From NCBI GenBank assembly GCA_947626695.1, contig CANQTE010000001.1, positions 14-64,013 of the forward strand: a stretch of DNA of 64,000 nt. Direction: 5' to 3'. The position numbers and the translations under genes are program-made. Positions 27,991-49,884 of the stretch are shown one piece after another. The notes beneath the pieces were generated by a model. The model ran no database searches and was not told the origin of the DNA. It was given only the letters and a program-made list of their open reading frames with translations. Origin of the DNA: an uncultured Bacilli bacterium. Its GTDB lineage: Bacteria; Bacillota_I; Bacilli_A; RF39; UBA660. Each line of letters begins with the position of its first letter. The first letter of the stretch is position 1.

Positions 27991-28013
27991 TATTTATTAC
28001 TTCCTTTCTAATC

Positions 28014-34192: not shown

Positions 34193-34250
34193 ATATTTTT
34201 TCCTTTTCCATTATATACTTCCTGTTAATTACGTAATTTTTATTGATTGT

Positions 34251-34544: not shown

Positions 34545-34558
34545 TTACATACTTCCTA

Positions 34559-34813
34559 TTAATTACGTGAAATTTTCTTTAAATACTTGATATTTATATC
34601 AAAATATTTTATAACATATTCTGTAGGGACTAAACCATATGGTGTTTCTTTACCAGTTTCATTTTTAACAAGCTCACGAATATTGTTAAAATGTTTACTT
34701 GCTATACTGTAACCACAGTATGCAATGGCCATAATCCCTCGTTTATCGACCCAAATGCCATTTAATATATCCAGTATTTCAGTAGCATTGGGTCTTTTTG
34801 TTAGTTTTTTCAT
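34559..34813 (-). CDS. hypothetical phage protein
   Basis: ORF only. Confidence 0.3.
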   Translation of the reverse strand: MKKLTKRPNATEILDILNGIWVDKRGIMAIAYCGYSIASKHFNNIRELVKNETGKETPYGLVPTEYVIKYFDINIKYLKKISRN

Positions 34814-34909
34814 AAAACCTCCAGTCTGGTAAGATTATTTTTCAATATTACAAATATTGATTTTTTACTTTTACTCCTTTAAAATACAAGTTCAGAAAGG
34901 AGTATTTTT

Positions 34910-35263
34910 ATGTTAGATAAGAAAACTTATAAATTTTTAATTTTTCTTGTAAATAATAATTCTATTACTCATGAAGAGTATTTTGATTATCATAAAAAGC
35001 ATAAAACTAACAAATGGATTACAATTCAAATGTATATATTTTTGCTAAATAATGGATACATTTATGTAAAAGATGACAAAATTTATTATTCATATCAAAC
35101 TAATATAATTATTAATTATTACAAAGAAAATAAACTAAGCAATATATTTACAAATTATATCTTACCTTACATACAACAATTATTTATATTTCTAATAGGA
35201 CTGCTAACACCATACCTATTAAAAACACTACAGCATATTCTAGAAATCTTAAAATTCTTTTAA
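34910..35263 (+). CDS. Plus-strand membrane protein, possible moron, inside the early region
   Basis: C-terminal hydrophobic segment. It is on the opposite strand to its neighbours. Confidence 0.3.
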   Translation: MLDKKTYKFLIFLVNNNSITHEEYFDYHKKHKTNKWITIQMYIFLLNNGYIYVKDDKIYYSYQTNIIINYYKENKLSNIFTNYILPYIQQLFIFLIGLLTPYLLKTLQHILEILKFF

Positions 35264-35422
35264 TATAGAATATTGTTTCCATTAAATCTTCGACTTCTCC
35301 CTTTCTCCAAATGTGTTTTTCAAACATTGGGAAGTTTTGTCCAAAATCTTTAGATATTTTATCTTTCATATATTCTCCTTTATGAAGTTATACTTCTGCT
35401 TTATTTCCTAAAAAAATAATGT

Positions 35423-35674
35423 TTAACATTTTTGCAATTTCTTATAAGACTTAAAATCTTGTTCTAAAGCATTAAAAAGTTCTTCTATATTTCCGTTAAG
35501 AACAGAAGTAATTTCACACAATTCTATTACAGTAGCATCTAATGGGAATTTTTCTTTTTTCGAATATGTATTTGGGTGCCAACCTAGCAATTTTCCGCTT
35601 TCTTCCTGATTTTTGCCAGCTCTTGCTCTAAAAGATTTTAATACTTTTGTTGTTTCATATTCTATGTTCATCAA
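35423..35674 (-). CDS. Cro-like XRE-family HTH regulator
   Basis: QEESGKLLGWHPNTYSKKE is an XRE-type HTH. It is divergent from the repressor gene. Confidence 0.5.
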   Translation of the reverse strand: MMNIEYETTKVLKSFRARAGKNQEESGKLLGWHPNTYSKKEKFPLDATVIELCEITSVLNGNIEELFNALEQDFKSYKKLQKC

Positions 35675-35703
35675 AAACTTTATCTCCTTTCATGTTTTAT
35701 TTT

Positions 35704-35722
35704 ATAAGATTTTAAATCTTAT
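35704..35722. promoter_or_regulatory. Perfect 19-bp palindromic operator candidate in the CI/Cro intergenic region
   Basis: ATAAGATTTTAAATCTTAT lies between the divergent HTH genes. Confidence 0.45.
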
Positions 35723-35830
35723 GTCAATATAAAATGTGATTTTTATTCTTATAATTTATGATTTTTTCTCTTGTCACTGTTGCTTTTTTTATAAATAAGT
35801 GTTAAAATTGTAATGAAATGAGGTGAAATT

Positions 35831-36190
35831 GTGACATTTAATTTACCTCCTAATTTTCTTTCATCAAATGTTGAATACTTGAGAAAAAAGAACAATATGT
35901 CCCAAGCTCAATTAGGAAAATTGGTAAATAAAGATTATTCAACAATAGGTAAATGGGAAAAAGGAATAAATCAACCGTCAATTGAGGATAGTTTTAAATT
36001 AGCAATTATATTTAATGTAGATTGGAGTTCTTTAATAAGAGAAAATTTACGTAATTCAAAAGCAAATAGTAATGATACTTTTACATTATATGATAACAAT
36101 AAAGATATCCTTACTAAAGATGATGAAGATTATATAAAATTTATAATAGAAAAAAGGAAAAAAGAAAGCGAAGAAGAAAAGAAGGAGTAA
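35831..36190 (+). CDS. CI-like XRE-family repressor (no peptidase domain)
   Basis: MSQAQLGKLVNKDYSTIGKWEKG is an XRE-type HTH, in the lysogeny-side orientation. Confidence 0.5.
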   Translation: MTFNLPPNFLSSNVEYLRKKNNMSQAQLGKLVNKDYSTIGKWEKGINQPSIEDSFKLAIIFNVDWSSLIRENLRNSKANSNDTFTLYDNNKDILTKDDEDYIKFIIEKRKKESEEEKKE

Positions 36191-36240
36191 AAACATTTTT
36201 TCTCTCTATGTTATATTTTTAAAGATAAAAAGGAGTTAAT

Positions 36241-36657
36241 GTGAAAAAAATAATTTGTTTAGTAATTATACTATTTGTAATATGTTTAATATTTTCTATA
36301 AGCATTAATAAAACTTCTTATGCTTCAAGAGGGTGTTGCTCATGGCATGGTGGAGTTAGTTATTGTGGAAGTAACGGTTATTATATTTGCAATGATGGCA
36401 CTCAAAGTCCTAGTTGTAGATGTTCTTCAACATCATTAGAAGATAATAATAATGATAACCATTATTTAGATTTATATGATAGTTCTTGTAATTATTCTGA
36501 TTACGAAAATGAAATTAAAGAACTAAAGGAAAAAAATGAAGATTTAGAAGAAAAAAACAATGACTATTTAGGCTATATTGAATTTTTAATTTTTATCTTG
36601 TTTATAGGAAGCATATATTGTTATTACAAAATTAGAAATTTAAAAAATACAGAATAA
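36241..36657 (+). CDS. Secreted, membrane-anchored Cys-rich small protein, moron candidate
   Basis: N-terminal signal/TM, a CCSWHGG...C..C.C Cys-rich block, an acidic coiled coil and a C-terminal TM. Confidence 0.4.
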   Translation: MKKIICLVIILFVICLIFSISINKTSYASRGCCSWHGGVSYCGSNGYYICNDGTQSPSCRCSSTSLEDNNNDNHYLDLYDSSCNYSDYENEIKELKEKNEDLEEKNNDYLGYIEFLIFILFIGSIYCYYKIRNLKNTE

Positions 36658-36670
36658 AAAAGGAGTAAAT

Positions 36671-37231
36671 ATGTTTGAATTTATTATAGAGCTTTTAGGA
36701 GTTATATTTATTATTTTTTTAATTATATATATTGTATCAGCAATAAAAGATAATTCACCTAAAAAAATTAATTCAATATGTAATAATATATATGATAATT
36801 CTCTTACCATTACTGAAAAATTAAACAATTTATTAAAAATTTATGGATATGAGCCTACAACAGATAATGAAATGACAACATTTTGTGCTGTTTCTTCAAT
36901 GTATTGTTATTACTTCTTTATTTTAGCCTTAAGAAAACATTATGGAGCTTCTAATAAAATATGTTCTACTATAACAAAACAGTTGTTAGGCAAATTATCA
37001 GCTAATATAAATAATATTAGTTTTGAACAAATTTCGAATATATACTTAGAAATAACATCTACATTAATAAAAACTCCTCAAAATAATTATGAAGAATTAG
37101 AAAAATATGTCGGATTATGTTATTTAAATCATGCTATAAACTTTAAAGGAGATGAAGTAGAAACAGATTTACTATTAAATATTTATGAAGAATTTAATAT
37201 CATATTAAAAAATAGTTATAAAATATATTAA
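36671..37231 (+). CDS. Membrane protein, a superinfection-exclusion or abortive-infection-type candidate
   Basis: N-terminal TM. It sits between the repressor and integrase, which is a typical moron position. Confidence 0.3.
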   Translation: MFEFIIELLGVIFIIFLIIYIVSAIKDNSPKKINSICNNIYDNSLTITEKLNNLLKIYGYEPTTDNEMTTFCAVSSMYCYYFFILALRKHYGASNKICSTITKQLLGKLSANINNISFEQISNIYLEITSTLIKTPQNNYEELEKYVGLCYLNHAINFKGDEVETDLLLNIYEEFNIILKNSYKIY

Positions 37232-37436
37232 TTTAATACTAGAAGAAAAAGAAATAATTTTCTTGTATTATATATTTACCAGAAAAAAATTCGGGTATAA
37301 AAAAAGTGCCCCCTACCCGCTGGAACGAGTAGAGGAAAACTGCTATAAGCAGTACATAAAAAATCTCACCAGACTTTTATGTACTCTAATTATAGCAAAA
37401 TAAAAAAATAAATGCAATAATTGGAGGTTAAAATTT

Positions 37437-38561
37437 ATGCCAGTATATCAAGAAAATGAAAATAAATGGACCAAAGATGGTCGTAAATGGTACTTTAAAG
37501 TTTACTATACAGATATGTATGGAAAACGTAAAAGAAAAAGAAGTAAATTATATTTAATGAAAAGAGATGCAATAGAAGCCGAATCTGAGTTTCTAACAAA
37601 AATAAAAACTGTTGATGAAACAGATAATAATATAAAGTTCGATACTGTATATAATGAGTGGCTAGAATTTAAAAAATCAAAAGTAAAGGTTTCTACCTAC
37701 TATAAAATTGTAAAAACATTAAACAAGCATATTTTAGATTTTTTTAAATCTTTTAAATTACATAATATAAAATTGAACTCTATTAATCAATGGAGAATTA
37801 AATTAGTAAATCAAGGACTTGATATAGATTATACAAATATAATTATTAATTATTTAAAAGAAATTTTGAATTTTGCTAAAACTAATTATAATTTTGATTA
37901 TAAAATTATTGATAAAATTTATACTATTAGAGATGACACACCAAAATCTGAAAAAACTGATGCAGAATTGAACTTTTGGACATATAGCGAGTTTAAAAAA
38001 TTTATAAATAAGGTTGATGATAAATTTTACTATTTAATATTTAATTTCTTGTATTTTACAGGTTTAAGAATTGGAGAATTTTCCGCATTAACTTGGAAAG
38101 ATATTGACCTAAGAAATAAAACTGTTAGTATTACAAAAAGTTTAACCTGTAAAGTCATTGATAAAAAATATATGATTACAAGCCCTAAAACTTCTAATTC
38201 TATAAGAGTAATAGATTTAGATGATAATTTAATAAAATTGCTTAAAGAGCATAAAAACAATGAAAAAAATATTCTTGGATTTAATGAGAATATGTTTGTA
38301 TTCGGAAATGTAAAATATATTTCACAAACAACATTAAGGAGGCATATTGCAAATTATGCGAAATTAGCTAAAGTTAAATATATTTCAATACATGGGTTTA
38401 GACACTCTCATGTGAGCTTACTAATATATTTAGGCTGTGATGTAAGAGACGTAGCAAATAGAATTGGAGATACAGTACAAATAGTTGAAAGTACATATTA
38501 TCATATGTTTCCTAAAAAGAAAGAAAATGCAATAAAATTACTAAATAATTTAGAAAAATAG
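37437..38561 (+). CDS. int: Tyrosine site-specific integrase
   Basis: C-terminal catalytic signature (R...HGFRHSHVSLL...Y). It is adjacent to the tRNA attachment site. Confidence 0.85.
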   Translation: MPVYQENENKWTKDGRKWYFKVYYTDMYGKRKRKRSKLYLMKRDAIEAESEFLTKIKTVDETDNNIKFDTVYNEWLEFKKSKVKVSTYYKIVKTLNKHILDFFKSFKLHNIKLNSINQWRIKLVNQGLDIDYTNIIINYLKEILNFAKTNYNFDYKIIDKIYTIRDDTPKSEKTDAELNFWTYSEFKKFINKVDDKFYYLIFNFLYFTGLRIGEFSALTWKDIDLRNKTVSITKSLTCKVIDKKYMITSPKTSNSIRVIDLDDNLIKLLKEHKNNEKNILGFNENMFVFGNVKYISQTTLRRHIANYAKLAKVKYISIHGFRHSHVSLLIYLGCDVRDVANRIGDTVQIVESTYYHMFPKKKENAIKLLNNLEK

Positions 38562-38578
38562 GACGTAAATAGGACGTA
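38560..38578. promoter_or_regulatory. Tandem AGGACGTA arm-type sites at the integrase-proximal prophage end
   Basis: AGGACGTA occurs at 38560-38567 and 38571-38578, overlapping the integrase stop codon, 15 bp from the att core. Confidence 0.45.
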
Positions 38579-38593
38579 ATTAATAAATGATAC

Positions 38594-38646
38594 GAAAAAA
38601 CTCCCTAAAATAGGGAGATTAAATCCACATGGCGGAGTAGAGAGGA
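38594..38646. repeat. attR core, overlapping the tRNA-Ser 3' end
   Basis: Perfect 53-bp copy of 12..64. It overlaps the 3' end of the minus-strand tRNA at 38630..38646. Confidence 0.85.
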
Positions 38647-38722
38647 TTTGAACCTCCGCGCCAGCATTCGCCGACCTAGATCCTTAGCAGGGACCCCTCT
38701 TCAGCCTCTTGAGTACTACTCC
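38630..38722 (-). tRNA. tRNA-Ser (anticodon GCU), long variable arm
   Basis: The reverse complement reads GGAGTAG...CUGCUAA...GGCGCGGAGGTTCAAATCCTCTCTACTCCGCCA. It has an acceptor stem, a T-arm GGTTCAAAT, the anticodon loop and an ~93-nt length. Confidence 0.8.
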
Positions 38723-38866: not shown

Positions 38867-40294
38867 ATGAATAATATTATTAAAAGACTTCAAGAAGAAT
38901 TTAAAAATGTTCCAGATTTAACTATTAAAAAAATTAAATTATCTTTTTTTGATACAGTTTATGTTGCTTATTTAGAAACTATATGTTCTAGTGATAGAGT
39001 TAATGATTATATATTAAAAAATTTAAGTGATTTAAGTGGTAAGAAAAAAAATAAAATTTTAAATACCAATAGTATTCTTCCTGGTCCTAATACTAAAATA
39101 ATAGATAATTATGATAAATTAGAGTTTTATATAAATAATGGATTTGCTATTATTATTAGGAAAAATAGAGCACTTGCAATTGAAGTTAAAGGAGATATAA
39201 ATAGAAGTATTCCAACTCCTGATTCTGAGCCCGCAATAAATGGTCCTAAAGATGCTTTTAATGAAAATTATCAAGTAAATATGGGACTTATTAAAAGAAG
39301 AATTAAAAGTAATACTCTTAAAACAGAAGAGTTTTTTCTAGGAAGAAAAACTAATACTAAAGTAGGTTTATTATATATAGATGATATCGCAGATACAAAA
39401 TTAATTAATAATATTAAGAATAAAATAACAAAAATAGATATAGATGGTATTCTTGATTCTTCCTCTTTAGGACAACTTATAAATAAAGAAAATAAAGTTC
39501 ATTTTCCCACATATATTTTAACAGAAAGACCTGATAATGTTGCAAGAGCTCTTTTAGAAGGTAAAATAGCAATACTTGTTGATACTTCTCCTTTTGTAAT
39601 TATTATACCTGCTTTTTTTGGTGATTTTATTAATCCTGGAGTAGATGCTTACAATAAAAGTAATAATATTAATTTTTTAAAAATAGTAAGACTTGCTTGT
39701 TTTTTCTTATCTATGAGTGTCCCAGCAATATATATAGCACTAGTTAATTATAATCAAGAAACTATACCTACACCCCTTCTTGCTAGTTTTGCTATTCAAA
39801 GAGATGGTGTTCCCTTCCCAGCCATAGTAGAAGCCGTGATGATGCTTTTTATATGTGAAATGTTAAGAGAAAGTGATATAAGGTTCCCTAATTCTTATGG
39901 GAGTGCTATTTCAATACTTGGTGCTTTAGTTTTAGGAGATGCCGCAGTTTCAGCAGGAATTGTCTCCCCTATAATGATAATTGTTATAGCTCTAACATTC
40001 ATGGCTAGTCTAATATTTACCGAAGCAGAAGTTACTAGTGCTCTTAGATTTATGCGTTTTATATTTATTATTTTAGCATCCTTTTATGGAATACTTGGAT
40101 TAGTATTTGGTTTATTTTTCTTTCTTATTAAAATTAATGATATTAAATCATTTGGTATGCCATACTTTTACCCTATTATGCCTTTTGATAAAAATTATTT
40201 CTTTAAAACTATTCTTAAAAAGCCCACAAAAAAAGATAAAAAAAGAAGTTCTATTTTAGCTAAAAAGAATTTGATTAAACAAGGAGAAAATTAA
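38867..40294 (+). CDS. Spore germination receptor, GerA-family A subunit
   Basis: Conserved GerAA core (ILTERPDNVARALLEGKIAILVDTSPFVIIIPAFF...) and C-terminal TM helices. Confidence 0.8.
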   Translation: MNNIIKRLQEEFKNVPDLTIKKIKLSFFDTVYVAYLETICSSDRVNDYILKNLSDLSGKKKNKILNTNSILPGPNTKIIDNYDKLEFYINNGFAIIIRKNRALAIEVKGDINRSIPTPDSEPAINGPKDAFNENYQVNMGLIKRRIKSNTLKTEEFFLGRKTNTKVGLLYIDDIADTKLINNIKNKITKIDIDGILDSSSLGQLINKENKVHFPTYILTERPDNVARALLEGKIAILVDTSPFVIIIPAFFGDFINPGVDAYNKSNNINFLKIVRLACFFLSMSVPAIYIALVNYNQETIPTPLLASFAIQRDGVPFPAIVEAVMMLFICEMLRESDIRFPNSYGSAISILGALVLGDAAVSAGIVSPIMIIVIALTFMASLIFTEAEVTSALRFMRFIFIILASFYGILGLVFGLFFFLIKINDIKSFGMPYFYPIMPFDKNYFFKTILKKPTKKDKKRSSILAKKNLIKQGEN

Positions 40295-41376
40295 TGAAAA
40301 AAATACTATTTATATTAATATTACCAATTTTATTAGGTGGTTGTTATGATTATAATGAACTTAACGATTTAGCTTTAATTTCTGGAATAGGAATAGATTT
40401 TAAAGATAATAAATATGAAGTTACTTTTGAAGTATTAAGTACTAAAAAACAAGGAGAAAGTGCTGGTATCACTAAAACTTATACTGTTAGTGCTATGGGA
40501 AGTAATATTCCAGAAGCTTTTATGAATAATGGTAATAATTTAGATAAAGTTCCCTATTATGACCATGTTGAAGTTGTTGTAATTAGTGAAGATGTTGCTA
40601 AAAATCATTTAGAAGATGTTGCAGAATATATTATTAGAAGTTCTAAATTTCGAAATGAAGTTTATTTAAGTATTGCTAAAAATACAAGTGCTTCTAATTT
40701 ACTCAAAACTACTAGTGAAGATAATCCTGTTGCAAGTACTTTTATAGTTAATTTATTAAATAATAGTAATACTTCTTCTAGTGCAGGCTATTATACTCCT
40801 TTTACAAAATTTTTAAATAAAGTTTTAACTGATGGCGAAGATGCCTTAGCTCCCGTATTTAAAATTCAAGATGAAAAAATTGTTTTAGATGGTATTGGAA
40901 CCTTTAAAGATTTTAAATTAGTTGCTACTTTTAATAATCATGATTCTTCTATTATAAATTTAATTAATAATTTTAAAGCTAAAACAGTAGTATTTTCTAA
41001 AAGTTGTGGGGAAAATAAAACTGTTTTAAGTATATATGATTCTGATATTAAAATACAAGCTTATAAAGATTATGTTAAAATAAGTGGTATGTTAAATGGA
41101 AGAATAAATGCTGATTCATGTGGGTATAATATGAGAAGTATTGATACTTATAAAACCCTTGAAAAAGAATTTAATACTATAATTGAAAAAGAAATAGATA
41201 AAATAATTAATAATTTTAAAGAAATAAAGTCTAATGCTTTTAGTATAGGTAAAATTTATTATAATAAATATCGCGATAAAAATGTGTTTTTATGGACCAA
41301 TCAAGAATTTAAATATGATATAGACTTAAAAATAAATAAGAAAGGATTAATATTTGAGGTGGAAGATGAAAAATAA
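40294..41376 (+). CDS. Spore germination receptor C subunit (lipoprotein)
   Basis: Lipobox LLGGC followed by DYNELNDLALISGIGID, typical of Ger(x)C. Confidence 0.75.
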   Translation: MKKILFILILPILLGGCYDYNELNDLALISGIGIDFKDNKYEVTFEVLSTKKQGESAGITKTYTVSAMGSNIPEAFMNNGNNLDKVPYYDHVEVVVISEDVAKNHLEDVAEYIIRSSKFRNEVYLSIAKNTSASNLLKTTSEDNPVASTFIVNLLNNSNTSSSAGYYTPFTKFLNKVLTDGEDALAPVFKIQDEKIVLDGIGTFKDFKLVATFNNHDSSIINLINNFKAKTVVFSKSCGENKTVLSIYDSDIKIQAYKDYVKISGMLNGRINADSCGYNMRSIDTYKTLEKEFNTIIEKEIDKIINNFKEIKSNAFSIGKIYYNKYRDKNVFLWTNQEFKYDIDLKINKKGLIFEVEDEK

Positions 41377-42367
41377 TATTGGTATTGCCTATTTCTTAAC
41401 TAGAAGTTTATTTTTAGGTTTTGGTATTTCATTGCTTTTTTATCAAAGTGGAAAAGATGCTTATTTTGGGGCTATATTAGGACTTTTTTTAGGCTTAATA
41501 ATAATCTATTTTTATTCTGATATAAAAAGTAAAAGCTTAAATGATTTATATAATATGGGATTAATGGGTAAAATAGCAAGAATATTAATGTTTATTATAA
41601 GTTATATAATATTAATTTATACTTTAGTTTTATATTGTTTATTTGTTATTAGTTTTTTACTTGTAAATAGTACTATATTATATGTTATTATTCCTTTTGT
41701 AATAATAGGTTTTTATCTAGCAAGTAAAGAAATAACAATAATTAGTAGAGTTGCAAATATTTTAATGCCTATAAGTGTTTTATTTAGTATTATTATTTTA
41801 TTTGGCTTAGGAAGTTTTTTTGAGACAACTAATTTTTTACCTATTCTAACTAATAGTCCTAAAAGTTTTTTTATGACGGCTTTTACTTTTGCCGGGATAA
41901 GTTCTTTTCCTAATATTTTAACCCTCCATTTAAATGATACTAAAAATAATATGAAAGGTTATATTTTAGCTAGTATTTTAATAATAATTTGTATTATATG
42001 TATCAATGGTGTTTTTGGTGAGAGTTTAACTAAAATATTTAGATTTCCTGAATATATGGTATTAAAACAAATACAAGTATTTAAATTTATAGAAAAAGTT
42101 GAAAATATATTCTCTAATATTTGGATTTTTGATTTATTTATAACTTCTGTCATGGCTATATATTCCATTAGAAAAACATTAAACTTTAAAAATAATAAAT
42201 TAGTTACTGTTTTAATACTTATTTTAACAGTCACTTTAATAAATAAAATATTAGTCCCAAACTATATAAATGAACTAAAACTCTATTATATACTTCCCCC
42301 TTTATCTCTTATTCTTTCTCTTATTACAATTTGTCTATTTAAGTATTTAATAAAAAAGAATCAATAA
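41354..42367 (+). CDS. Spore germination receptor B subunit (APC-like membrane protein)
   Basis: About 10 TM segments. It is the third gene of the ger operon. Confidence 0.7.
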   Translation: MRWKMKNNIGIAYFLTRSLFLGFGISLLFYQSGKDAYFGAILGLFLGLIIIYFYSDIKSKSLNDLYNMGLMGKIARILMFIISYIILIYTLVLYCLFVISFLLVNSTILYVIIPFVIIGFYLASKEITIISRVANILMPISVLFSIIILFGLGSFFETTNFLPILTNSPKSFFMTAFTFAGISSFPNILTLHLNDTKNNMKGYILASILIIICIICINGVFGESLTKIFRFPEYMVLKQIQVFKFIEKVENIFSNIWIFDLFITSVMAIYSIRKTLNFKNNKLVTVLILILTVTLINKILVPNYINELKLYYILPPLSLILSLITICLFKYLIKKNQ

Positions 42368-43040: not shown

Positions 43041-43760
43041 ATGAATATTAAAAATATTAAAAATGCATTAACTAATTTATCAGGAAATTTATATCACAGA
43101 ACTCAAATAGATTTTGCATATCATACTAATTATATTGAAGGTTCTACTATTACCCCAAGTGAGGCTCAAAATATCTATGATACAGGAACTATTTTAACTA
43201 GTAAAGATAAAGTTATTGTTTTAAAAGATGTAACTGAAATCAAAAACCATTTTACTTTATTTAAATACATGTTAGATACCATAGACGAAGAATTATCCGA
43301 AGATTTAATTAAAAAATTTCATTTTATCTTAAAAGATGGCACTTTAACGGATGTTGAAAAAACTTGGGTTAATATAGGGGAATATAAATCAAAAAAGAAC
43401 TTTGTAGGTAATATTACTACTTCACTTCCTAAAGATGTTAAAAAAGATATGGAAAATTTACTAGACTGGTACTCTAAAATTCCTAAAAAAAGCATTTTAG
43501 ATATAATAGAATTTCATGTTAGATTTGAACACATTCACCCTTTTCAAGATGGTAATGGTCGTATAGGAAGAATAATCATGTTTAGAGAGTGTTTAAACAA
43601 TGATATAATGCCATTTTTTATTGAAGATAGAAATAAAGATTTCTATATCAGAGGAATTAAAGAATATCAAAATAACAACGAAAAAGGTTATTTAATTGAT
43701 ACTTGTTTAAATAGTCAAGATAACTATGAAAAACTAGTAAAATATTTCTTAGAAGATTAA
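43041..43760 (+). CDS. Fic family protein
   Basis: Fic motif HPFQDGNGRIGR. Confidence 0.85.
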   Translation: MNIKNIKNALTNLSGNLYHRTQIDFAYHTNYIEGSTITPSEAQNIYDTGTILTSKDKVIVLKDVTEIKNHFTLFKYMLDTIDEELSEDLIKKFHFILKDGTLTDVEKTWVNIGEYKSKKNFVGNITTSLPKDVKKDMENLLDWYSKIPKKSILDIIEFHVRFEHIHPFQDGNGRIGRIIMFRECLNNDIMPFFIEDRNKDFYIRGIKEYQNNNEKGYLIDTCLNSQDNYEKLVKYFLED

Positions 43761-43811
43761 TTCTAATAAAAACTAAATCATTTTAATCACACTCCTAATC
43801 ATAATAAATAA

Positions 43812-44162
43812 TTATTTTAAATTAAACATACCATTATATTTATTTATTATTTTTTCTAGATTTACTTCTATCTTTTTTAAATCATTATTAAGTCTTTTAT
43901 GTTCTTTTTCTGTTTTATAATCTTTAATTTCTAAAGCATACATAATATACCTACTAGCAGCGATTGTAAGAAGTGACTTAGCAATCTCTCCCATACCAAT
44001 ATTTCTAAATTTTTTTCTCCAATATTTATACGCTAAATAAGCATTAAAATACCAATAGTGGACATCAAGTATCGAATCATAATACGTATCTACTAGCTCC
44101 ATTTCTTCTTTCTTATAGCATATAAAATATACTTCTACATTTTCTGACTTATCATTATACAT
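43812..44162 (-). CDS. hypothetical protein
   Basis: ORF only. Confidence 0.3.
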   Translation of the reverse strand: MYNDKSENVEVYFICYKKEEMELVDTYYDSILDVHYWYFNAYLAYKYWRKKFRNIGMGEIAKSLLTIAASRYIMYALEIKDYKTEKEHKRLNNDLKKIEVNLEKIINKYNGMFNLK

Positions 44163-44230
44163 AAGTTCGCCTCTTTTCTATGCTATAATCATAATACAAA
44201 ATTATTGATATGTCAAATTGCAGATTTTCG

Positions 44231-44314
44231 AAGATTCACCGACGAATCTTTAAAATTGATGCGCCAATCTTAAAGATTGATTAACCAAACGTGAAGATTG
44301 ATGCACCAATCTTC
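44231..44314. promoter_or_regulatory. Array of three related palindromes built on AAGATTG/CAATCTT upstream of rpn
   Basis: aagattc-accgac-gaatctt (44231-44250), caatctt-a-aagattg (44265-44279) and gaagattg-atgcac-caatcttc (44293-44314). Confidence 0.45.
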
Positions 44315-44421
44315 AAAATTTGCAAAATTTAATTTTTTTTAAATTTTTTTTCTTAGTATAAATAATTTTTTGCTTAAAATACTGATTTCCCCCATAGAAC
44401 GACAAATTTCGCACTTTCTTT

Positions 44422-45351
44422 GTGTTATTATATGCCCTCGAAAGGAGGAAATTCATGAAAATGAAAGAAAAAGTCTTTTTAAAGTTAAGTGATGATTTAC
44501 TATTTAAGGAAGCTTTTGCTCACCCAGATAATCGAGATATACTTATTTACTTTTTATCATGTTTTACTGACTTTACTAAAGAATATTTAGAAAGTGTAGA
44601 TATAAAAGTAGAATATGAAAGTGTTTTAACTAAAACAAAAAGTAACGATAGGTCTGTTCGAGGTGACGTCATAATCAAGTTTGATGGGCATATAATAAAT
44701 TTAGAAGCTTATTCTTCATTTGATAGAAATTCTTTTGATAAATCTATGTATTATATTATGAGAATATTCTCGACTCGAACTAATCGAGGAAAGAAAAGTT
44801 ATAAAAAACTAGAGAAAGTAATTCAAATAAATATAGTAGACGATGTAACACCAAAAGATTTAATCGAAAAAATGGTAGAAAATACTATGTCAGTAAAAGA
44901 TGCTAAAAATAATGAAATATATTCAGATATATTTCAAATAAAATATTATAGGCTTGACACCTTGAAAAAAATGGTATATGATAAAAACAACTTAAAACAA
45001 AGATGGCTTAAATTTATTTGTGCAAAAACTGCCGAGGAAAGAAAGACAATAGCTAAAGGAGATGAATTGTTAATGAAATTTGATAATTGGTGTGAAGAAT
45101 ATGTCAATGACGAGCAAACAAAAAAGATTTTTGCAGATTGGGCTGATTATATTGCCGAGAACAAAGGTATAAGAAAAGGAATTGACATGGGAATTGCTCA
45201 AGGTGCTTTAGAAAAAGCTTATGAGATAGCTAGAAATATGTATAATAAAAATATGAATATTAAAGATATCATGGCTATAACAGAACTTTCCAAAAAAGAT
45301 ATAGCTAAAGCAACAGGTTTATCTATGAAAGAAATACAAAGTTTAGCATAA
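44422..45351 (+). CDS. Rpn (YhgA-like) family PD-(D/E)xK recombination-promoting nuclease/putative transposase
   Basis: The N-terminus DLLFKEAFAHPDNRDILIYFL is typical of the TIGR01784-type family. The C-terminal helical domain reads GIRKGIDMGIAQG...ITELSKKDIAKATGLSMKEIQSLA. Confidence 0.65.
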   Translation: MLLYALERRKFMKMKEKVFLKLSDDLLFKEAFAHPDNRDILIYFLSCFTDFTKEYLESVDIKVEYESVLTKTKSNDRSVRGDVIIKFDGHIINLEAYSSFDRNSFDKSMYYIMRIFSTRTNRGKKSYKKLEKVIQINIVDDVTPKDLIEKMVENTMSVKDAKNNEIYSDIFQIKYYRLDTLKKMVYDKNNLKQRWLKFICAKTAEERKTIAKGDELLMKFDNWCEEYVNDEQTKKIFADWADYIAENKGIRKGIDMGIAQGALEKAYEIARNMYNKNMNIKDIMAITELSKKDIAKATGLSMKEIQSLA

Positions 45352-45365
45352 GTATTACTTATTAA

Positions 45366-45400
45366 AACAGATATTAAAAATTTAAAATATCTGTTTTTCT
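45366..45400 (+). terminator. Rho-independent terminator after rpn
   Basis: aacagatatt...aatatctgtt hairpin plus a T-run. Confidence 0.5.
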
Positions 45401-45513
45401 TTAATTTTAGAAATAGTATTATAAATATATTTCACATAGAATATTATTTTCTTGACATAGTAAGTAAAATAGTATATTATAAAATTGATTTATAATAAAG
45501 AAATGAGGTTATT

Positions 45514-45723
45514 ATGCAATCAAATAAACAGTGCGAAGAATATGTCAATGACGAACAAACAAAAAAGATATTTGCAGATTGGGCTGATTATGTTGCGGAG
45601 AATAAAGGTGCTTTAAAAAAAACTTATGAGATTGCCAAAAATATGTTAAATCTTAATATATCTAAAAAAGATATAGCTAAAGCAACAGGTTTATCTATGA
45701 AAGAAATTAAAAGTTTAGCTTAA
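45514..45723 (+). CDS. Stand-alone 69-aa copy of the Rpn C-terminal domain (RpnS-like small protein)
   Basis: CEEYVNDEQTKKIFADWADYVAENKG...KDIAKATGLSMKEIKSLA is ~90% identical to the Rpn C-terminus, with an internal ~20-aa deletion. It has its own RBS (gaggt), an upstream TTGACA-17-TATTAT promoter and a downstream terminator. Confidence 0.6.
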   Translation: MQSNKQCEEYVNDEQTKKIFADWADYVAENKGALKKTYEIAKNMLNLNISKKDIAKATGLSMKEIKSLA

Positions 45724-45738
45724 ATATTAATTATTAAA

Positions 45739-45772
45739 AACAGGTACTAAAAATTAAAATATCTGTTTTTTT
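45739..45772 (+). terminator. Terminator after the small rpn-C-domain gene (duplicated copy)
   Basis: aacag...ctgtt stem plus a T-run, homologous to 45366..45400. Confidence 0.4.
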
Positions 45773-45814
45773 ATTATATTTAAAATTGTATAAAAAAAGA
45801 TAACCTAAATTATC

Positions 45815-46444
45815 TTAACTTGCACCAGCCGCAGCTGTCTCATTAACTTCATTTATAACAAAAAGTCTTAAACTTACTTTTCCAGAAATTTCATCCGTAA
45901 CTTTACTTTCGTCAACCCAAACTTGTAATTTTTTACTAGTCGTTTTGGCACCAGCATTTAAATTTCCGCTTTCTATTTGATAACCCCAACATTTACTACC
46001 CGCCGTCGTACCTTTAGCAGCACAACCAGTATTTACAGCAGATGTAGTCGCATCTATAGCAACTCCAGAAGCAATCGATGTAAGCAACTGCGCATTTCCA
46101 CCACCAACAGAAATTTTAATCTTACCTAAATCAACCGCATTACTATCATCCGCATATAAATAAAGCTTATATGAACTTGGTAAATTACTACTTGTATTTT
46201 CTATTACATAAGATAGACCAGTACTTGATTTTCCAGTTGCATCATCCGAAACATCAACACTTCCAAGTGCGGTTACACCCGTAATATTTACTTTTAAAGT
46301 TCCCGCGGTTATAACCTGGTTATTTGCATTCTTCTTTACATCAAAAAATACAGCATAACTAACACCCATCGCAGCCATTGCAACTAAAACAACCGCTATT
46401 GCAATAATTGTAGTTTGTTTCTTGATAATATCCTTTACTTTCAT
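45815..46444 (-). CDS. TasA/camelysin-family secreted protein with a SipW-cognate-class signal peptide
   Basis: The N-terminal TM is followed by YAVFFD...ITAGTLKV, matching the AxFxD...AGTL pattern. The body is Gly/Ser/Thr-rich and beta-type. Confidence 0.5.
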   Translation of the reverse strand: MKVKDIIKKQTTIIAIAVVLVAMAAMGVSYAVFFDVKKNANNQVITAGTLKVNITGVTALGSVDVSDDATGKSSTGLSYVIENTSSNLPSSYKLYLYADDSNAVDLGKIKISVGGGNAQLLTSIASGVAIDATTSAVNTGCAAKGTTAGSKCWGYQIESGNLNAGAKTTSKKLQVWVDESKVTDEISGKVSLRLFVINEVNETAAAGAS

Positions 46445-47067: not shown

Positions 47068-49884
47068 TTATTTAACAACAATATTTACTATTTTACCTTT
47101 AATAACTATTATTTTAACTATTTCTTTTCCTGTTATATATTTTTTTACATTTTCATTTTCTAAAGCTTTATTTTTAATACTTTCTTCATCTTCATTTATA
47201 GAAATAGTTACTTCCCCTCGAAGTTTACCATTTACTTGAACACCAATAGTTACTTCATTATCAACAGTTTTTTCTTCGTCATATTTAGGCCAAGATAGCT
47301 CTGCAATAGGTTTATAGCCTAATTCTTCATTTAATTCTTCCGTAATATGAGGAGCAATAGGATTTAATAAAATAAGTAATACTTGATAATCTTTTTTAGT
47401 TATTTCTTTTTTATCTTCATAGTTATTTGCTAAAATCATTAAACTAGATACTGCTGTATTATATTTCATTGTAGATAAATCATTAGTTACTTTTTTAATA
47501 GTTTTATGAATAATATTTTCTAAATCTTTAGAATATTCTTCACTTTGATTAACTTTATCTTTAAGTTTAATTATTCTATCTAAAAATCTCCTACAACCTT
47601 TAAGACCTTCATTACTCCATGGAATATCTTTTTCATAATCTCCCATAAACATTTCAAATAATCTTAAAGTATCTGCCCCATATTTATTTACAACATCAAC
47701 TGGATTAATTCCATTTCCTTTAGATTTACTTATTTTAGTTCCATCTTCCGCTAAAACCATACCATGAGCAACTCTCTTTTTAAATGGCTCTTTAGTAGGT
47801 ACTAAGCCTTGGTCATAAAGAAATTGATGCCAAAATCTCGCATAAAGTAAATGGCGAGTGGCGTGCTCCATACCACCATTATAATAATCAACCATACCCC
47901 AGTATTTAAGAGCATCTTTTCCCACAAACTCTTTATCATTATGAGGGTCCATATATCTTAACCAATACCAACTAGAACCAGCCCAATTAGGCATTGTATC
48001 TGTTTCTCTTTTCGCAGGTTTACCACATTTAGGACATGGAGTATTTACCCAATCTGTAATATTTGCAAGTGGGGATTCTCCTGTATCAGTAGGCTCATAA
48101 TGAGCAACAGTTGGTAATAATACAGGAAGTTTGTTTTCTGGAACAGGAACCCAACCACAAGTATCGCAATAAATCATAGGAATAGGTTCACCCCAGAATC
48201 TTTGACGAGAGAATATCCAATCTTGTAAACGATAATTAGTTGTTTTCTTACCAACATGATTTGCTTCTAAAAATTCTAACATTTTTTTAATTGCATCTTC
48301 TTTATTAAGACCATTTAGAAATTCAGAATTAATATGTTTACCATCACCAATCATAGCACCAGGATTTAGAGCATATAGATAAGTTTTCGCGTGAAGTTCA
48401 TCTTTAACTTCTTCTAATATAGTTTTTTTATCTACCCATTCACAATCAAATTTTTCATCATCATCTAGATTTTTAGAATCTTGTTCATAATTATCTAATT
48501 CAAAATATAGTCCTGTTGAATTAATATCAAAATATTTATCTTTATTATAAGCATAATAATGATGTTCAATAATTGGTAAAGTATATTTTAATGTTAAATT
48601 TTTATAACCTGTTTCTTCTTTTATTTCCCGTATAGCACAGTCTAAAGGACTTTCATTTTCTTTTATTGTTCCTCCAATAAATAAGCGTCCTCCTAATTCA
48701 TGCCAGTTAAGAGTTAAATATTTATCTTCTTTTTTATCATAGACAATAGCAACGATAGAATTTTTTTTGATTTCGTGCGTTTTAGGAGTACCTGTTTCTT
48801 CTGCTAGAACTTGAATAATTGGTATATTAAATTTCTTAGCAAAAGCATAATCTCGCTCATCATGAGCTGGAACAGCCATGATAGCACCAGTTCCATAACT
48901 TGCTAAAACATAATCACTTATCCATATTTCTATTTCTTTATTATTTACAGGATTAATAGCTACAAGTCCTTCTAATTTAACACCTGTTTTATCTTTAGTT
49001 ATATCTGTTCTTTCAATATCACTTTTTTCTTTAGCTTTTTCTTGATAAATATTTACTTCTTTAATATTTTTAATTTTATCTTTATATTTTTCTAAAAAAG
49101 GGTGTTCTGGAGACATAACCATAAAAGTTGCTCCAAATAAAGTATCACATCTTGTTGTAAATACTTTTAAGACATCTTCTGTTCCTTTAAGTTTAAAATC
49201 TACTTCAGCACCAATGCTTTTACCTATCCAATTTATTTGAGCAGTTTTAATTTTTTCTTCAAATTCTGTATCTTTAAGACCATCAAGTAACCTTTCAGCA
49301 TAATCACTCATTCTAAGTATCCATTGTGATTTTAACTTTTTAGTTACTTTAGAGCCACATCTTTCACATACTCCTCCAGCAGCATCTTCATTTGAAAGAC
49401 CTGTTTTACAATTAGGACACCAATTTATTTCTTTTTCACCTTTATAGGCCATACCTTTTTTATAAAATTGTAAAAATTGCCATTGGGTCCATTTATAATA
49501 TTCAGGGTCTGTTGTAGAAAATTCTCTTGACCAATCAAAGGACATACCTAAAGATTTTATTTGTCCTTTAAAAGTTTTAATATTTTCTCTTACAGCATCC
49601 TCAGGATAAATATGATTTTTTATGGCATATTGTTCTGCTGGAGCCCCAAAAGCATCCCAACCCATAGGAAATAAAACATTATAGCCTTGTAACCTTTTCA
49701 TTCTTGCCATGGCATCTAATGCGGAATAACTCCTAACATGACCAACATGTAAGCCAGAACCACTAGGATATGGAAACTCTACTAAAATATAATACTTTTC
49801 TTTAGTTCCTCCATTTTGAGCTTCAAAATAATGATTTTCTTCCCATTTTTTTTGCCATTTCTTTTCAATTTCAATATTATTCAT
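47068..49884 (-). CDS. leuS: Leucyl-tRNA synthetase carrying an inserted Nudix hydrolase domain
   Basis: HVGH class-I motif, editing-domain motifs (AVPAHDERDYAFAKK) and KMSKS-region equivalents are all present. At 938 aa it is ~130 aa longer than typical bacterial LeuS, because of an insertion carrying a complete Nudix box. Confidence 0.9.
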   Translation of the reverse strand: MNNIEIEKKWQKKWEENHYFEAQNGGTKEKYYILVEFPYPSGSGLHVGHVRSYSALDAMARMKRLQGYNVLFPMGWDAFGAPAEQYAIKNHIYPEDAVRENIKTFKGQIKSLGMSFDWSREFSTTDPEYYKWTQWQFLQFYKKGMAYKGEKEINWCPNCKTGLSNEDAAGGVCERCGSKVTKKLKSQWILRMSDYAERLLDGLKDTEFEEKIKTAQINWIGKSIGAEVDFKLKGTEDVLKVFTTRCDTLFGATFMVMSPEHPFLEKYKDKIKNIKEVNIYQEKAKEKSDIERTDITKDKTGVKLEGLVAINPVNNKEIEIWISDYVLASYGTGAIMAVPAHDERDYAFAKKFNIPIIQVLAEETGTPKTHEIKKNSIVAIVYDKKEDKYLTLNWHELGGRLFIGGTIKENESPLDCAIREIKEETGYKNLTLKYTLPIIEHHYYAYNKDKYFDINSTGLYFELDNYEQDSKNLDDDEKFDCEWVDKKTILEEVKDELHAKTYLYALNPGAMIGDGKHINSEFLNGLNKEDAIKKMLEFLEANHVGKKTTNYRLQDWIFSRQRFWGEPIPMIYCDTCGWVPVPENKLPVLLPTVAHYEPTDTGESPLANITDWVNTPCPKCGKPAKRETDTMPNWAGSSWYWLRYMDPHNDKEFVGKDALKYWGMVDYYNGGMEHATRHLLYARFWHQFLYDQGLVPTKEPFKKRVAHGMVLAEDGTKISKSKGNGINPVDVVNKYGADTLRLFEMFMGDYEKDIPWSNEGLKGCRRFLDRIIKLKDKVNQSEEYSKDLENIIHKTIKKVTNDLSTMKYNTAVSSLMILANNYEDKKEITKKDYQVLLILLNPIAPHITEELNEELGYKPIAELSWPKYDEEKTVDNEVTIGVQVNGKLRGEVTISINEDEESIKNKALENENVKKYITGKEIVKIIVIKGKIVNIVVK
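48361..48801 (-). other. Nudix hydrolase domain inserted in the LeuS editing-domain region (residues ~362-508)
   Basis: GGTIKENESPLDCAIREIKEETGY fits the Nudix box GX5EX7REUXEEXGU exactly. The insert lies between ...NIPIIQV and GDGKHINSEFLNGL, which are contiguous in ordinary LeuS. Confidence 0.7.

What the first reader, a model, noticed from the sequence alone, without database searches (positions are those of the whole stretch)
44422..45772. Rpn (YhgA-like) nuclease gene followed by a separately expressed duplicated copy of its own C-terminal domain, a candidate toxin plus RpnS-like antitoxin pair
The 309-aa Rpn-family PD-(D/E)xK protein is followed 160 bp later by a 69-aa ORF that is ~90% identical to the Rpn C-terminal helical domain, with a ~20-aa internal deletion. 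The DNA duplication includes the terminator hairpin (45366-45400 and 45739-45772). The small gene has its own sigma-A-like promoter and RBS. In E. coli, Rpn proteins are toxic nucleases held in check by small C-terminal-domain proteins made from an internal start within the same gene, and they act in anti-phage defence. Here the inhibitor-like domain is a free-standing gene, an architecture I have not seen described. The locus sits next to a prophage and a Fic gene, as in a defence or toxin island.
Basis: partly seen in the sequence, partly recalled or inferred. Interest (0 to 1): 0.8.

Follow-up and report, generated by a model that had tools for sequence, protein, structure and literature searches.

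The report
Rpn nuclease gene with spare antitoxin-domain gene
A toxic-nuclease defence gene of the Rpn family is followed by a small separate gene copied from its own tail; the copy is real and looks maintained, but the same arrangement was described in E. coli in 2023, so this is a new example rather than a new kind of system.

Summary
An Rpn-family PD-(D/E)xK gene (best start ATG 44455, 298 aa, ends 45351) is followed 162 nt later by an intact 69-aa ORF (45514-45723). The ORF is homologous to Rpn residues 207-298 (56/69 identical, two gaps).

The pair is a head-to-tail duplication of a ~498-bp unit (44927-45424 / 45425-45797). The unit runs from just upstream of a promoter-like site inside rpn (TTGACA-17-TATGAT, 44954-44982), through an internal RBS and ATG (M207, 45073), to the terminator. 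So the whole predicted RpnS transcription unit was copied.

In copy 2 the promoter, RBS, ATG and ORF survive, while the former coding leader carries stop codons and a 57-nt deletion. At least two further rpn loci, probably in the same genome, carry an intact small gene. dN/dS is 0.25-0.46.

The novelty claim fails. Zhong et al. 2023 (PNAS) described downstream free-standing rpnS copies (rpnE-ypaA, rpnC-rpnCSs). The small protein differs from its neighbour's tail by three 4-aa repeats and an 11-aa insertion, so by the E. coli rule it is probably not the cognate inhibitor; the internal RpnS is.

One added point: the small genes are mosaics whose C-terminal halves match the tails of other rpn paralogs.

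Verdict: new member of a known kind, modest interest.

The parts
44455..45351 (+). rpn (RpnL): Rpn-family PD-(D/E)xK nuclease, 298 aa from ATG 44455. The listed ORF starts at GTG 44422. RBS GGAGG at 44444-44448.
   Evidence: Residues D14, D71, E84, Y86 and K96 are conserved in a 47-sequence alignment. They correspond by motif to RpnA D11, D63, E82, Q84 and R94. The AlphaFold model has pLDDT 84.5; its best PDB match is McrC.
44360..44454 (+). Conserved 5' leader/promoter region of rpn, shared by paralogous rpn loci.
   Evidence: nearly identical in the window, L018 and the 67%-identical paralog L019.
44954..44982 (+). Promoter-like site inside rpn: TTGACA (44954-44959), 17 nt, TATGAT (44977-44982). 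Predicted promoter of the short RpnS transcript.
   Evidence: 11 of 12 matches. Invariant position in all 10 paralog copies that include the region. Its Asp codon GAC is otherwise rare, and is the only GAC in three paralogs.
45055..45075 (+). Predicted internal translation start: AAAGGAG (45055-61), 11 nt, then ATG (45073-75) = Met207.
   Evidence: Conserved in all paralogs. The small ORF's ATG aligns exactly to this ATG.
45073..45351 (+). [quoted passage not shown]
   Evidence: Profile hit to PDB 7TH0 RpnA-S (E = 0.011). NCBIfam RpnA tail match to aa 225-286.
45166..45201 (+). Three 4-aa repeats (GIRK GIDM GIAQ) in the long helix. Absent from the small ORF. Hypervariable among paralogs.
   Evidence: Length differences between tails are always multiples of 4 aa.
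45253..45285 (+). 11-aa insertion (MNIKDIMAITE) unique to this Rpn. A local duplication that adds an extra short helix.
   Evidence: TRF finds a 15-nt repeat at 45234-45269. Extra helix at residues 269-276 in the model.
45364..45400 (+). Intrinsic-terminator hairpin after rpn (12-bp stem plus T run).
   Evidence: -9.9 kcal/mol, z = -4.1. Conserved in L004 and L005.
44927..45424 (+). Duplication unit 1 (498 bp): from rpn codon ~158, through the internal promoter, internal start and tail, to past the terminator.
   Evidence: repeat families D1-D3, D5, D6, D8.
45425..45797 (+). Duplication unit 2 (373 bp): the same unit, differing from unit 1 by 57-, 36- and 33-nt indels.
45425..45513 (+). Decayed former coding leader of unit 2. 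It reads NIFHIEYYFLDIVSKIVYYKIDL** against Rpn 158-180, followed by the 57-nt deletion.
45452..45480 (+). Promoter-like site of the small gene: TTGACA-17-TATTAT. Homologous to the site inside rpn.
   Evidence: Identical in L004. The -35 hexamer is deleted in L005, L006 and L018.
45505..45508 (+). RBS GAGG, 5 nt before the small-ORF ATG. A new, better-spaced site compared with the internal start in rpn.
   Evidence: invariant in all three loci.
45514..45723 (+). Free-standing RpnS-like gene (rpnSs type), 69 aa.
45736..45773 (+). Second, duplicated terminator hairpin after the small gene.
   Evidence: -7.5 kcal/mol, z = -2.6..

Best explanation
This is an Rpn (RpnL/RpnS) toxin-antitoxin-type defence gene with an extra, free-standing downstream copy of its RpnS part. 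That makes it the counterpart of E. coli rpnE-ypaA ('rpnSs').

Shown by sequence:
- A ~498-bp segment was duplicated head to tail. It contains the promoter-like site inside rpn, the internal RBS and ATG (Met207), the C-terminal three-helix/HTH domain and the terminator.
- In the second copy the expression signals and the ORF have been kept. The RBS is better spaced than the original. The now-useless upstream coding remnant has decayed.
- The rpn-plus-small-gene module occurs at three or more loci, probably in one genome. The small genes have recombined with the tails of other rpn paralogs.

Inferred from the E. coli work (Kingston 2017; Zhong 2023):
- RpnL is a toxic, non-specific DNA endonuclease.
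- The intragenic RpnS (aa 207-298) binds the identical tail of RpnL through the long repeat-bearing helix and keeps it inactive until phage infection.
- The free-standing 69-aa protein is expressed from its own promoter as a shorter-helix RpnS variant.
- Because it lacks three 4-aa repeats and the 11-aa insertion, it is more likely a modulator, a partner of lower or altered affinity, or a spare tail for recombination, than the primary cognate antitoxin of the adjacent RpnL.
For: Family membership:
- PF12784 and TIGR01784 hits are above their cut-offs.
- The predicted active-site residues are conserved.
- The model has a PD-(D/E)xK fold.
- The tail and small ORF match E. coli RpnA-S, PDB 7TH0, by profile (E = 0.011) and by fold (probability 0.99, TM 0.87, rmsd 0.7 A, 33% identity).

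The duplicated unit is the RpnS transcription unit:
- tblastn and DNA alignments show homology starting at Rpn aa ~158, with the two TTGACA-17-TAT(G/T)AT sites in register.
- The site inside rpn is invariant in 10 paralog copies.
- It uses a GAC codon that is otherwise rare: 27 of 194 Asp codons, and the only GAC in L007, L008 and L010.
- Free-standing copies in two other contexts (L014, L022) also begin just 5' of this TTGACA.

Maintenance of the small gene:
- Intact 69-77-aa versions exist in five sequence variants.
- Two further loci also pair an rpn with a small gene: L004, and L005/L018.
- dN/dS is 0.25 against the gene's own tail and 0.29-0.46 between small genes, at dS up to 0.67.
- The RBS and ATG are invariant.
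- The adjacent former coding stretch has two stops and a 57-nt deletion.

Repeats:
- Tails differ by multiples of 4 aa, as Zhong et al. describe.

Known precedent:
-.
Against: - No expression, binding or toxicity data exist for this organism.
- Promoter-like hexamers are common in 27% GC DNA: 12 found against 14 expected at the 9/12 threshold.
- In the third locus (L005/L018) the -35 hexamer of the small gene is deleted.
- Such copies can decay. The third copy in L014 is frameshifted, and RefSeq annotates E. coli ypaA as a pseudogene.
- The dN/dS values rest on few substitutions (8-16 synonymous) and are blurred by recombination.
- The third active-site position is Tyr, not Gln or Lys.
- PADLOC has no model that matches the Rpn or the small protein.
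- That all paralogous loci come from one genome is inferred from shared samples, equal coverage (~5x) and NCBI contig records, not proven.
Confidence: 0.65

Rival explanations
1. One reading: the 69-aa protein is the cognate antitoxin of the adjacent Rpn, so this is a detached two-gene toxin-antitoxin pair that replaces the intragenic arrangement.
For: - Same strand, immediately downstream, with its own promoter-like site and RBS.
- Same fold as RpnA-S.
- The first 31 residues, which include the start of the dimerising helix, are nearly identical to the Rpn tail.
Against: - The rpn keeps its own promoter-like site, RBS and ATG, just like paralogs that lack a downstream copy.
- The small protein lacks three 4-aa repeats and the 11-aa insertion. 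In E. coli RpnC a one-repeat mismatch abolishes inhibition.
- Its C-terminal half is 96% identical to another paralog's tail but only 84% to its neighbour's.
Confidence: 0.15
2. The small ORF is a functionless remnant of a tandem duplication, or of a second rpn copy that lost its 5' part. It is still open only by chance.
For: - Rpn loci are prone to tandem duplication.
- A third copy in L014 is frameshifted.
- E. coli ypaA is annotated as a pseudogene.
- The -35 hexamer is lost in L005/L018.
Against: - The ORF is intact in three paralogous loci and five sequence variants, at dS up to 0.67.
- dN/dS is 0.25-0.46.
- The RBS and ATG are invariant, and the RBS is better spaced than the original.
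- The neighbouring former coding stretch from the same duplication has already acquired stops and a deletion.
- 82 of the 150 best representatives found with the domain profile are 120 aa or shorter, though some may be truncated or internal-start gene calls.
Confidence: 0.15
3. The small protein is mainly an HTH DNA-binding regulator, for example a repressor of rpn or of neighbouring genes, rather than a protein-protein inhibitor.
For: - Weak Pfam Trp_repressor hit (E = 0.0046, below cut-off).
- TrpR-like proteins are among the best Foldseek matches (E about 0.4-1).
- Zhong et al. note HHpred similarity of RpnS to HTH motifs.
- The rpn 5' leader is strongly conserved.
Against: - All these hits are non-significant.
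- The best geometric match is RpnA-S itself.
- No operator-like repeat is shared between the paralogous modules. The 21-nt palindromes at 44231-44314 are absent from L018.
Confidence: 0.1
4. The small genes act as spare C-terminal cassettes. Recombination between them and the full-length genes, within and between loci, swaps tails and repeat numbers and so diversifies toxin-antitoxin specificity. This does not exclude the best explanation.
For: - Mosaic identities. In the first 32 codons the small genes cluster together (99% and 89%). In the part after the repeats, the window's small gene is 96% identical to the L004 Rpn tail (own tail 84%), and the L018 small gene is 94% identical to the L019 Rpn tail (own tail 71%).
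- L014 carries three tandem units.
Against: - Past recombination does not show a selected function.
- Only seven sequences were compared.
- The loci come from metagenome assemblies whose contigs break inside rpn, so some chimerism cannot be excluded. Against that, the window, L018 and three independent assemblies agree.
Confidence: 0.2

Closest known systems
E. coli rpnE-ypaA (rpnESs) and rpnC-rpnCSs: downstream free-standing RpnS copies (Zhong et al. 2023, PNAS, PMC10400941)
   Same: - A small gene immediately downstream of rpn on the same strand.
- It starts at the position homologous to the internal start and includes that start's RBS.
- It is a diverged copy of the gene's own tail. YpaA is 75% identical to RpnE 244-299; here the figure is 81%.
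- It differs from the upstream tail in the number of 4-aa repeats: YpaA has one more (KLEG); here there are three fewer.
   Different: - In E. coli, ypaA starts 13 nt after the rpnE stop, with no terminator or promoter between them. Here the duplicated unit also carries the promoter-like site inside rpn and the terminator. The copy is therefore a predicted autonomous transcription unit, 162 nt downstream.
- Zhong et al. find that each RpnSs clusters with its own upstream RpnS. Here the small genes cluster with each other in the N-terminal part and with the tails of other paralogs in the C-terminal part.
- The nuclease belongs to PF12784, not PF04754. The host is an uncultured low-GC Bacilli bacterium.
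Intragenic RpnL/RpnS toxin-antitoxin defence (E. coli RpnA-E, plasmid RpnP2, C. difficile Rpn; Zhong 2023; Kingston 2017)
   Same: - PD-(D/E)xK N-terminal domain with conserved acidic residues.
- A variable three-helix tail matching RpnA-S, PDB 7TH0.
- A promoter-like site plus RBS and ATG inside the gene.
- 4-aa repeat variation.
- Many paralogs per genome.
   Different: - Expression, toxicity, inhibition and phage defence are untested here.
- The repeats start 31 residues after the internal Met, against 8-20 reported.
- The third catalytic-motif position is Tyr.
Free-standing RpnS-like small proteins annotated DUF4351 (PF14261) or HTH_Rpn_C (PF27070)
   Same: - A small stand-alone protein made only of the Rpn tail domain.
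- Precomputed Pfam lists a (weak) PF27070 hit for this protein.
- A profile search finds 3889 relatives. 82 of the best 150 are 120 aa or shorter.
   Different: - No PF14261 hit at E <= 0.01.
- Here the origin from the adjacent gene is still directly visible.

Membership tests
Rpn family (NCBIfam TIGR01784 / COG5464; Pfam PF12784 PDDEXK_2 branch) | Whole-protein HMM match above the curated cut-off | tested here: met
   PF12784: 81.6 bits against a cut-off of 27.4. TIGR01784: 70 bits against 52.1, covering profile positions 2-272 of 273.
Rpn family (NCBIfam TIGR01784 / COG5464; Pfam PF12784 PDDEXK_2 branch) | PD-(D/E)xK fold with catalytic residues equivalent to RpnA D11, D63, E82 and Q84 | tested here: met
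   D14, D71 and E84 are invariant or nearly so in 47 homologs. The third motif position is Tyr86 (invariant) instead of Gln or Lys. The equivalence to RpnA residues is by motif, not by a direct alignment. Model matches: McrC (E = 7e-4), XisH, BglII, BbvCI.
Rpn family (NCBIfam TIGR01784 / COG5464; Pfam PF12784 PDDEXK_2 branch) | C-terminal three-helix/HTH domain homologous to RpnA-S | tested here: met
   Profile against PDB 7TH0: E = 0.011. Foldseek against 7TH0: probability 0.99, TMt 0.87, rmsd 0.7 A, 33% identity; the E-value is not significant for so small a domain. NCBIfam RpnA tail match, E = 0.004.
Rpn family (NCBIfam TIGR01784 / COG5464; Pfam PF12784 PDDEXK_2 branch) | Hypervariable 4-aa repeats in the long tail helix | tested here: met
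   G-hydrophobic-x-x units. The tails of paralogs and the small genes differ by 4, 8, 12 or 16 aa.
Rpn family (NCBIfam TIGR01784 / COG5464; Pfam PF12784 PDDEXK_2 branch) | Internal promoter and internal translation start producing RpnS | tested here: inconclusive
   The sequence signals are present and invariant among paralogs, and they were copied together with the small gene. Expression cannot be tested here.
Rpn family (NCBIfam TIGR01784 / COG5464; Pfam PF12784 PDDEXK_2 branch) | RpnL toxicity, inhibition by RpnS, protection against phage | not testable with these tools
   Needs experiments. PADLOC-DB 2.0 has no model that matches.
[quoted passage not shown] | Match to PF04754 | tested here: not met
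   No PF04754 hit at E <= 0.01; only PF12784. Only the tail matches the NCBIfam RpnA equivalog: 16.6 bits against a cut-off of 583.
rpnSs (downstream free-standing RpnS copy, ypaA type; Zhong 2023) | Small gene directly downstream of rpn, same strand, starting at the homolog of the internal start | tested here: met
   Compared with rpnE-ypaA.
rpnSs (downstream free-standing RpnS copy, ypaA type; Zhong 2023) | Clusters with its own upstream RpnS (independent local origin) | tested here: not met
   The N-terminal parts cluster among the small genes. The C-terminal parts cluster with the tails of other paralogs. A local tandem origin is still visible in the flanks.
rpnSs (downstream free-standing RpnS copy, ypaA type; Zhong 2023) | The protein is synthesised | not testable with these tools
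   Indirect support only: promoter-like site and RBS and dN/dS below 1.
DUF4351 (Pfam PF14261) | HMM match | tested here: not met
   No hit at E <= 0.01 for the small ORF or for the 92-aa tail.

The most novel reading that the evidence does not exclude
The free-standing RpnS genes are not just extra antitoxin. Together with the tails of the several rpn paralogs, they would form a recombining pool of cassettes. Exchange through the 4-aa-repeat region and the ~500-bp tandem units would swap HTH halves and repeat numbers between small genes and full-length nucleases. That would re-pair toxins and inhibitors across loci and so diversify, or cross-regulate, a multi-paralog Rpn defence network.
Probability: 0.2. 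Interest if true: 0.6.

Novelty: new member of a known kind. Interest (0 to 1): 0.3.

Why it matters
The locus adds independent, Gram-positive evidence for the Rpn gene-within-gene model. Evolution has here cut out and copied the predicted RpnS transcription unit (internal promoter, RBS, ATG, tail, terminator). That is what one expects if this unit is expressed on its own.

It also raises a question the 2023 work left open: what downstream RpnS copies do when their repeat number does not match the neighbouring nuclease. The paralog mosaics suggest that tails are exchanged between loci. None of this changes the classification. The architecture is already described.

Tried and rejected
- A genome-contig scan with the single Rpn protein found nothing. 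A second scan with an alignment found relatives only in three rabbit-gut 'uncultured Bacilli' MAGs.
- Scans of JGI metagenome contigs and of viral contigs with the small-protein alignment found nothing. I therefore have no broad census of rpn-plus-small-gene pairs and no phage-encoded copies.
- PADLOC has no model matching the Rpn or the small protein.
- Rfam finds nothing in 43700-46000.
- A single-sequence PDB search gave only chance hits.
- Tandem Repeats Finder does not detect the diverged 12-nt repeats.
- Exact-sequence look-ups failed for the NCBI-only proteins P0009, P0010 and P0067.
- P0008 lies at a contig end, so it may be an internal-start gene call rather than a free-standing gene.
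- I considered matching each small protein to a paralog with the same helix length. The lengths are 8, 8 and 12 aa for the small proteins against 12, 20, 20 and 28 aa for the nucleases. This gives no clean pairing, so I dropped it as a claim.
- I rejected 'transposase'. Zhong et al. find no terminal repeats or target duplications at rpn genes, and I saw none here.
Full report
**What is there**

The window has 26.7% GC. Its closest relatives are uncultured rabbit-gut Bacilli MAGs. An ORF on the + strand ends at 45351.

The listed start is GTG 44422 (309 aa). ATG 44455 is the better start. It lies 6 nt after GGAGG, and the paralog L018 has only this ATG. That gives 298 aa.

The protein matches Pfam PF12784 (PDDEXK_2; 81.6 bits, cut-off 27.4). 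It also matches NCBIfam TIGR01784, 'Rpn family recombination-promoting nuclease/putative transposase' (70 bits, cut-off 52.1). It does not match PF04754, the YhgA/Transposase_31 family of E. coli RpnA-E.

In an alignment of 47 homologs, D14, D71, E84, Y86 and K96 are invariant or nearly so. By motif these sit where RpnA has D11, D63, E82, Q84 and R94 (Kingston et al. 2017, PMC5350276). An AlphaFold model (pLDDT 84.5) matches PD-(D/E)xK nucleases best: McrC (E = 7e-4), then XisH, BglII and BbvCI.

A 69-aa ORF (45514-45723) starts 162 nt after the stop. It aligns to Rpn residues 207-298 with E = 8e-32. There are 56 identities, which is 81% of the small protein. There are two gaps, of 12 and 11 aa.

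**Anatomy of the duplication**

tblastn extends the homology upstream of the small ORF's ATG. In the same frame, 45424-45492 reads NIFHIEYYFLDIVSKIVYYKIDL**, against Rpn 158-180 DIFQIKYYRLDTLKKMVYDKNNL. A 57-nt deletion follows.

DNA alignment and the repeat finder show a head-to-tail duplication. Unit 1 is 44927-45424 (498 bp). Unit 2 is 45425-45797. The start-to-start spacings are 498, 441, 405 and 372 nt, falling as the three indels accumulate.

It is the homolog of a site inside rpn, TTGACA-17-TATGAT at 44954-44982. Both match 11 of 12 positions. Two such sites compare with 0.105 expected per strand in this region.

The small ORF's ATG aligns to Met207 of Rpn (ATG 45073). That Met is preceded by AAAGGAG. 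Both units end in a hairpin plus T-run terminator.

So the duplicated segment is what Zhong et al. 2023 call the RpnS unit of an rpn gene: internal promoter, internal translation start, tail and terminator.

**Is the internal unit real?**

The TTGACA-17-TATGAT site is present at the same position, 152 nt before the NDEQTKK motif, in all 10 paralogous copies that include the region. The amino acids between the hexamers differ among these copies.

The -35 hexamer requires an Asp GAC codon. GAC makes up only 27 of 194 Asp codons in nine paralogs. It is the only GAC in three of them (L007, L008, L010).

The GGAG and ATG of the internal start are also invariant.

Free-standing copies in two other contexts also begin just 5' of this TTGACA. 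They are L014 from another MAG and L022 from another sample.

This is comparative support. It is not proof of expression.

**Is the small gene maintained?**

A search of 5.8 billion proteins found eight relatives of 69-114 aa, including five intact 69-77-aa variants.

Contigs from the same samples, at the same ~5x coverage, show two more loci where an rpn is followed by an intact small gene:
- L004, next to gltX (P0002, 69 aa).
- L005, L006 and L018, next to trmD/rimM (P0006, 73 aa).

A fourth paralog (L019, 67% identical) has no small gene.

NCBI cluster records place the three ~90%-identical Rpn proteins on NCBI contigs of 64,269, 18,596 and 40,911 bp. Those contigs probably belong to one MAG.

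The RBS (GAGG, then 5 nt, then ATG) and the ATG are invariant in all three loci. The full promoter-like site is identical in the window and L004. In L005/L018 the -35 hexamer is deleted.

Nei-Gojobori dN/dS is 0.25 between the small gene and its own upstream tail (dS 0.43). Between small genes it is 0.29-0.46 (dS 0.28-0.67).

The former coding leader of the same duplication has two stops and a deletion. That serves as an internal control for what unconstrained sequence looks like here.

Decay does occur elsewhere. L014 carries three tandem units, and the third is frameshifted.

**The tail domain**

A profile of the tails and small proteins hits PDB 7TH0, E. coli RpnA-S, with E = 0.011.

The AlphaFold model of the 69-aa protein (pLDDT 77) has a short helix, a long helix (residues 14-46) and two short helices. 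It superposes on 7TH0 with probability 0.99, TM 0.87 normalised to 7TH0, rmsd 0.7 A and 33% identity. The Foldseek E-value (0.62) is not significant for so small a domain.

The 12-aa gap equals three 4-aa units, GIRK GIDM GIAQ. Paralog tails and small genes differ from one another by 4, 8, 12 or 16 aa at this spot. This is the hypervariable 4-aa repeat that Zhong et al. describe.

The 11-aa difference is an insertion found only in this window's Rpn. It came from a local duplication and adds a helix at residues 269-276 in the model.

**Comparison with what is known**

Zhong et al. 2023 (PMC10400941) showed four things. RpnL proteins are toxic endonucleases. RpnS, made from an internal start under an internal promoter, binds and inhibits them. 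A one-repeat mismatch abolishes inhibition in RpnC. A plasmid Rpn protects against T-even phages.

[quoted passage not shown] Their examples are ypaA (rpnESs) downstream of rpnE and rpnCSs downstream of rpnC. They add that such copies can be lost by deletion or by fusion. Koonin's commentary repeats this.

I checked E. coli K-12 directly. YpaA (61 aa) is 75% identical to RpnE 244-299. It has one extra 4-aa repeat. It starts 13 nt after the rpnE stop, and the duplication includes the RBS but no promoter or terminator.

A profile search of 1.84 billion representatives gives 3889 hits at E <= 1e-3. Of the best 150, 82 are 120 aa or shorter, and many carry long runs of G-x-x-x repeats. Some of these may be truncated or internal-start gene calls.

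The architecture is therefore known. This locus is a new member in the PF12784 branch and in a Gram-positive lineage. It differs in that the copy is a predicted autonomous transcription unit.

**What the small protein probably does**

Zhong et al. showed only that RpnESs is made. They did not test its function.

Here every small protein has a shorter repeat region (8, 8 and 12 aa) than any full-length tail (12, 20, 20 and 28 aa). By the E. coli rule, the 69-aa protein is unlikely to be the cognate inhibitor of its neighbour. The internal 92-aa RpnS is the better candidate.

I therefore read the small gene as a second, divergent RpnS. It may act as a modulator or as a partner of altered affinity.

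**An added observation**

The small genes are mosaics.
- In the first 32 codons they cluster with each other. The window's small gene is 99% identical to L004's and 89% to L018's, but 86% to its own upstream tail.
- After the repeats, the window's small gene is 96% identical to the tail of the L004 Rpn, against 84% for its own neighbour.
- After the repeats, the L018 small gene is 94% identical to the tail of the L019 Rpn, against 71% for its own neighbour.

This indicates recombination between small genes and the tails of other paralogs, with breakpoints in or near the repeats. It fits the suggestion by Zhong et al. that recombination generates and removes these copies. Whether it has a selected role is open. 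That is the novel reading I rate at about 0.2.

**Context**

The upstream neighbour is a Fic protein that strongly matches the PADLOC candidate defence family PDC-S04 (8e-94). A 116-aa ORF with no family match lies between Fic and rpn.

The prophage is about 6 kb away. It has ERF, SSB and DnaB_2 genes and an integrase at 37437-38561 next to tRNA-Ser. It lies beyond a gerA operon and a GDPD gene.

The paralogous modules sit between housekeeping genes (leuS, trmD/rimM, gltX). All short-read contigs break inside rpn, which fits a multi-copy gene.

**Verdict**

The finding is a new member of a known kind. Interest is about 0.3.

Noticed in passing
window 47068-49884 (-): The leucyl-tRNA synthetase (938 aa) carries a NUDIX domain (PF00293, E = 6e-13, residues 376-498). 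It is inserted right after a shortened editing domain (PF13603, residues 217-372). This is an unusual domain insertion for LeuRS.
   Followed up: partly
window 44231-44314: Four tandem 21-nt units, each roughly a palindrome (AAGATTG-N7-CAATCTT). They lie between the divergent 116-aa ORF (43812-44162, minus strand, promoter-like site 44216-44188) and rpn. They look like operator sites and are absent upstream of the paralog L018.
   Followed up: partly
window 44360-44454: The ~95-nt region upstream of rpn is almost identical in three paralogous loci, including one whose protein is only 67% identical. It is more conserved than the coding sequence, which suggests a shared promoter or regulatory leader.
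   Followed up: no
window 43041-43760 (+): The Fic-domain protein next to rpn matches the PADLOC candidate defence family PDC-S04 (8e-94) and, more weakly, SoFic.
   Followed up: no
window ~26000-38722: A prophage-like block with SSB, ERF, a PD-(D/E)xK protein, a DnaB_2 replication protein and a tyrosine integrase (37437-38561), ending next to tRNA-Ser (38630-38722). A gerA-type spore-germination operon follows at 38867-42367.
   Followed up: partly
L014 1-1330 (MAG Lapin-005 bin8): Three tandem RpnS units. The first is the end of an rpn at the contig edge. The second is an intact 73-aa free-standing gene with an undeleted leader and TTGACA-17-TATGAT. The third is frameshifted (56 aa). An unrelated ~150-nt insert lies at about 779-935 between copies 2 and 3.
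   Followed up: partly
L022 1-700: A free-standing RpnS unit that begins about 21 nt upstream of the TTGACA. The 240 nt before it are unrelated AT-rich DNA, so it is not directly preceded by an rpn tail.
   Followed up: no
proteins P0077 (579 aa), P0084 (743 aa) and others: Some database proteins carry 2-7 tandem copies of the HTH half of the RpnS domain. This architecture was not examined further.
   Followed up: no
window 45234-45285: This Rpn's tail has a private 11-aa insertion produced by a local duplication (NMYNK/NMNIK; KDIMAIT against KDIAKAT). It is predicted to add a fourth short helix. No paralog or small gene has it.
   Followed up: partly
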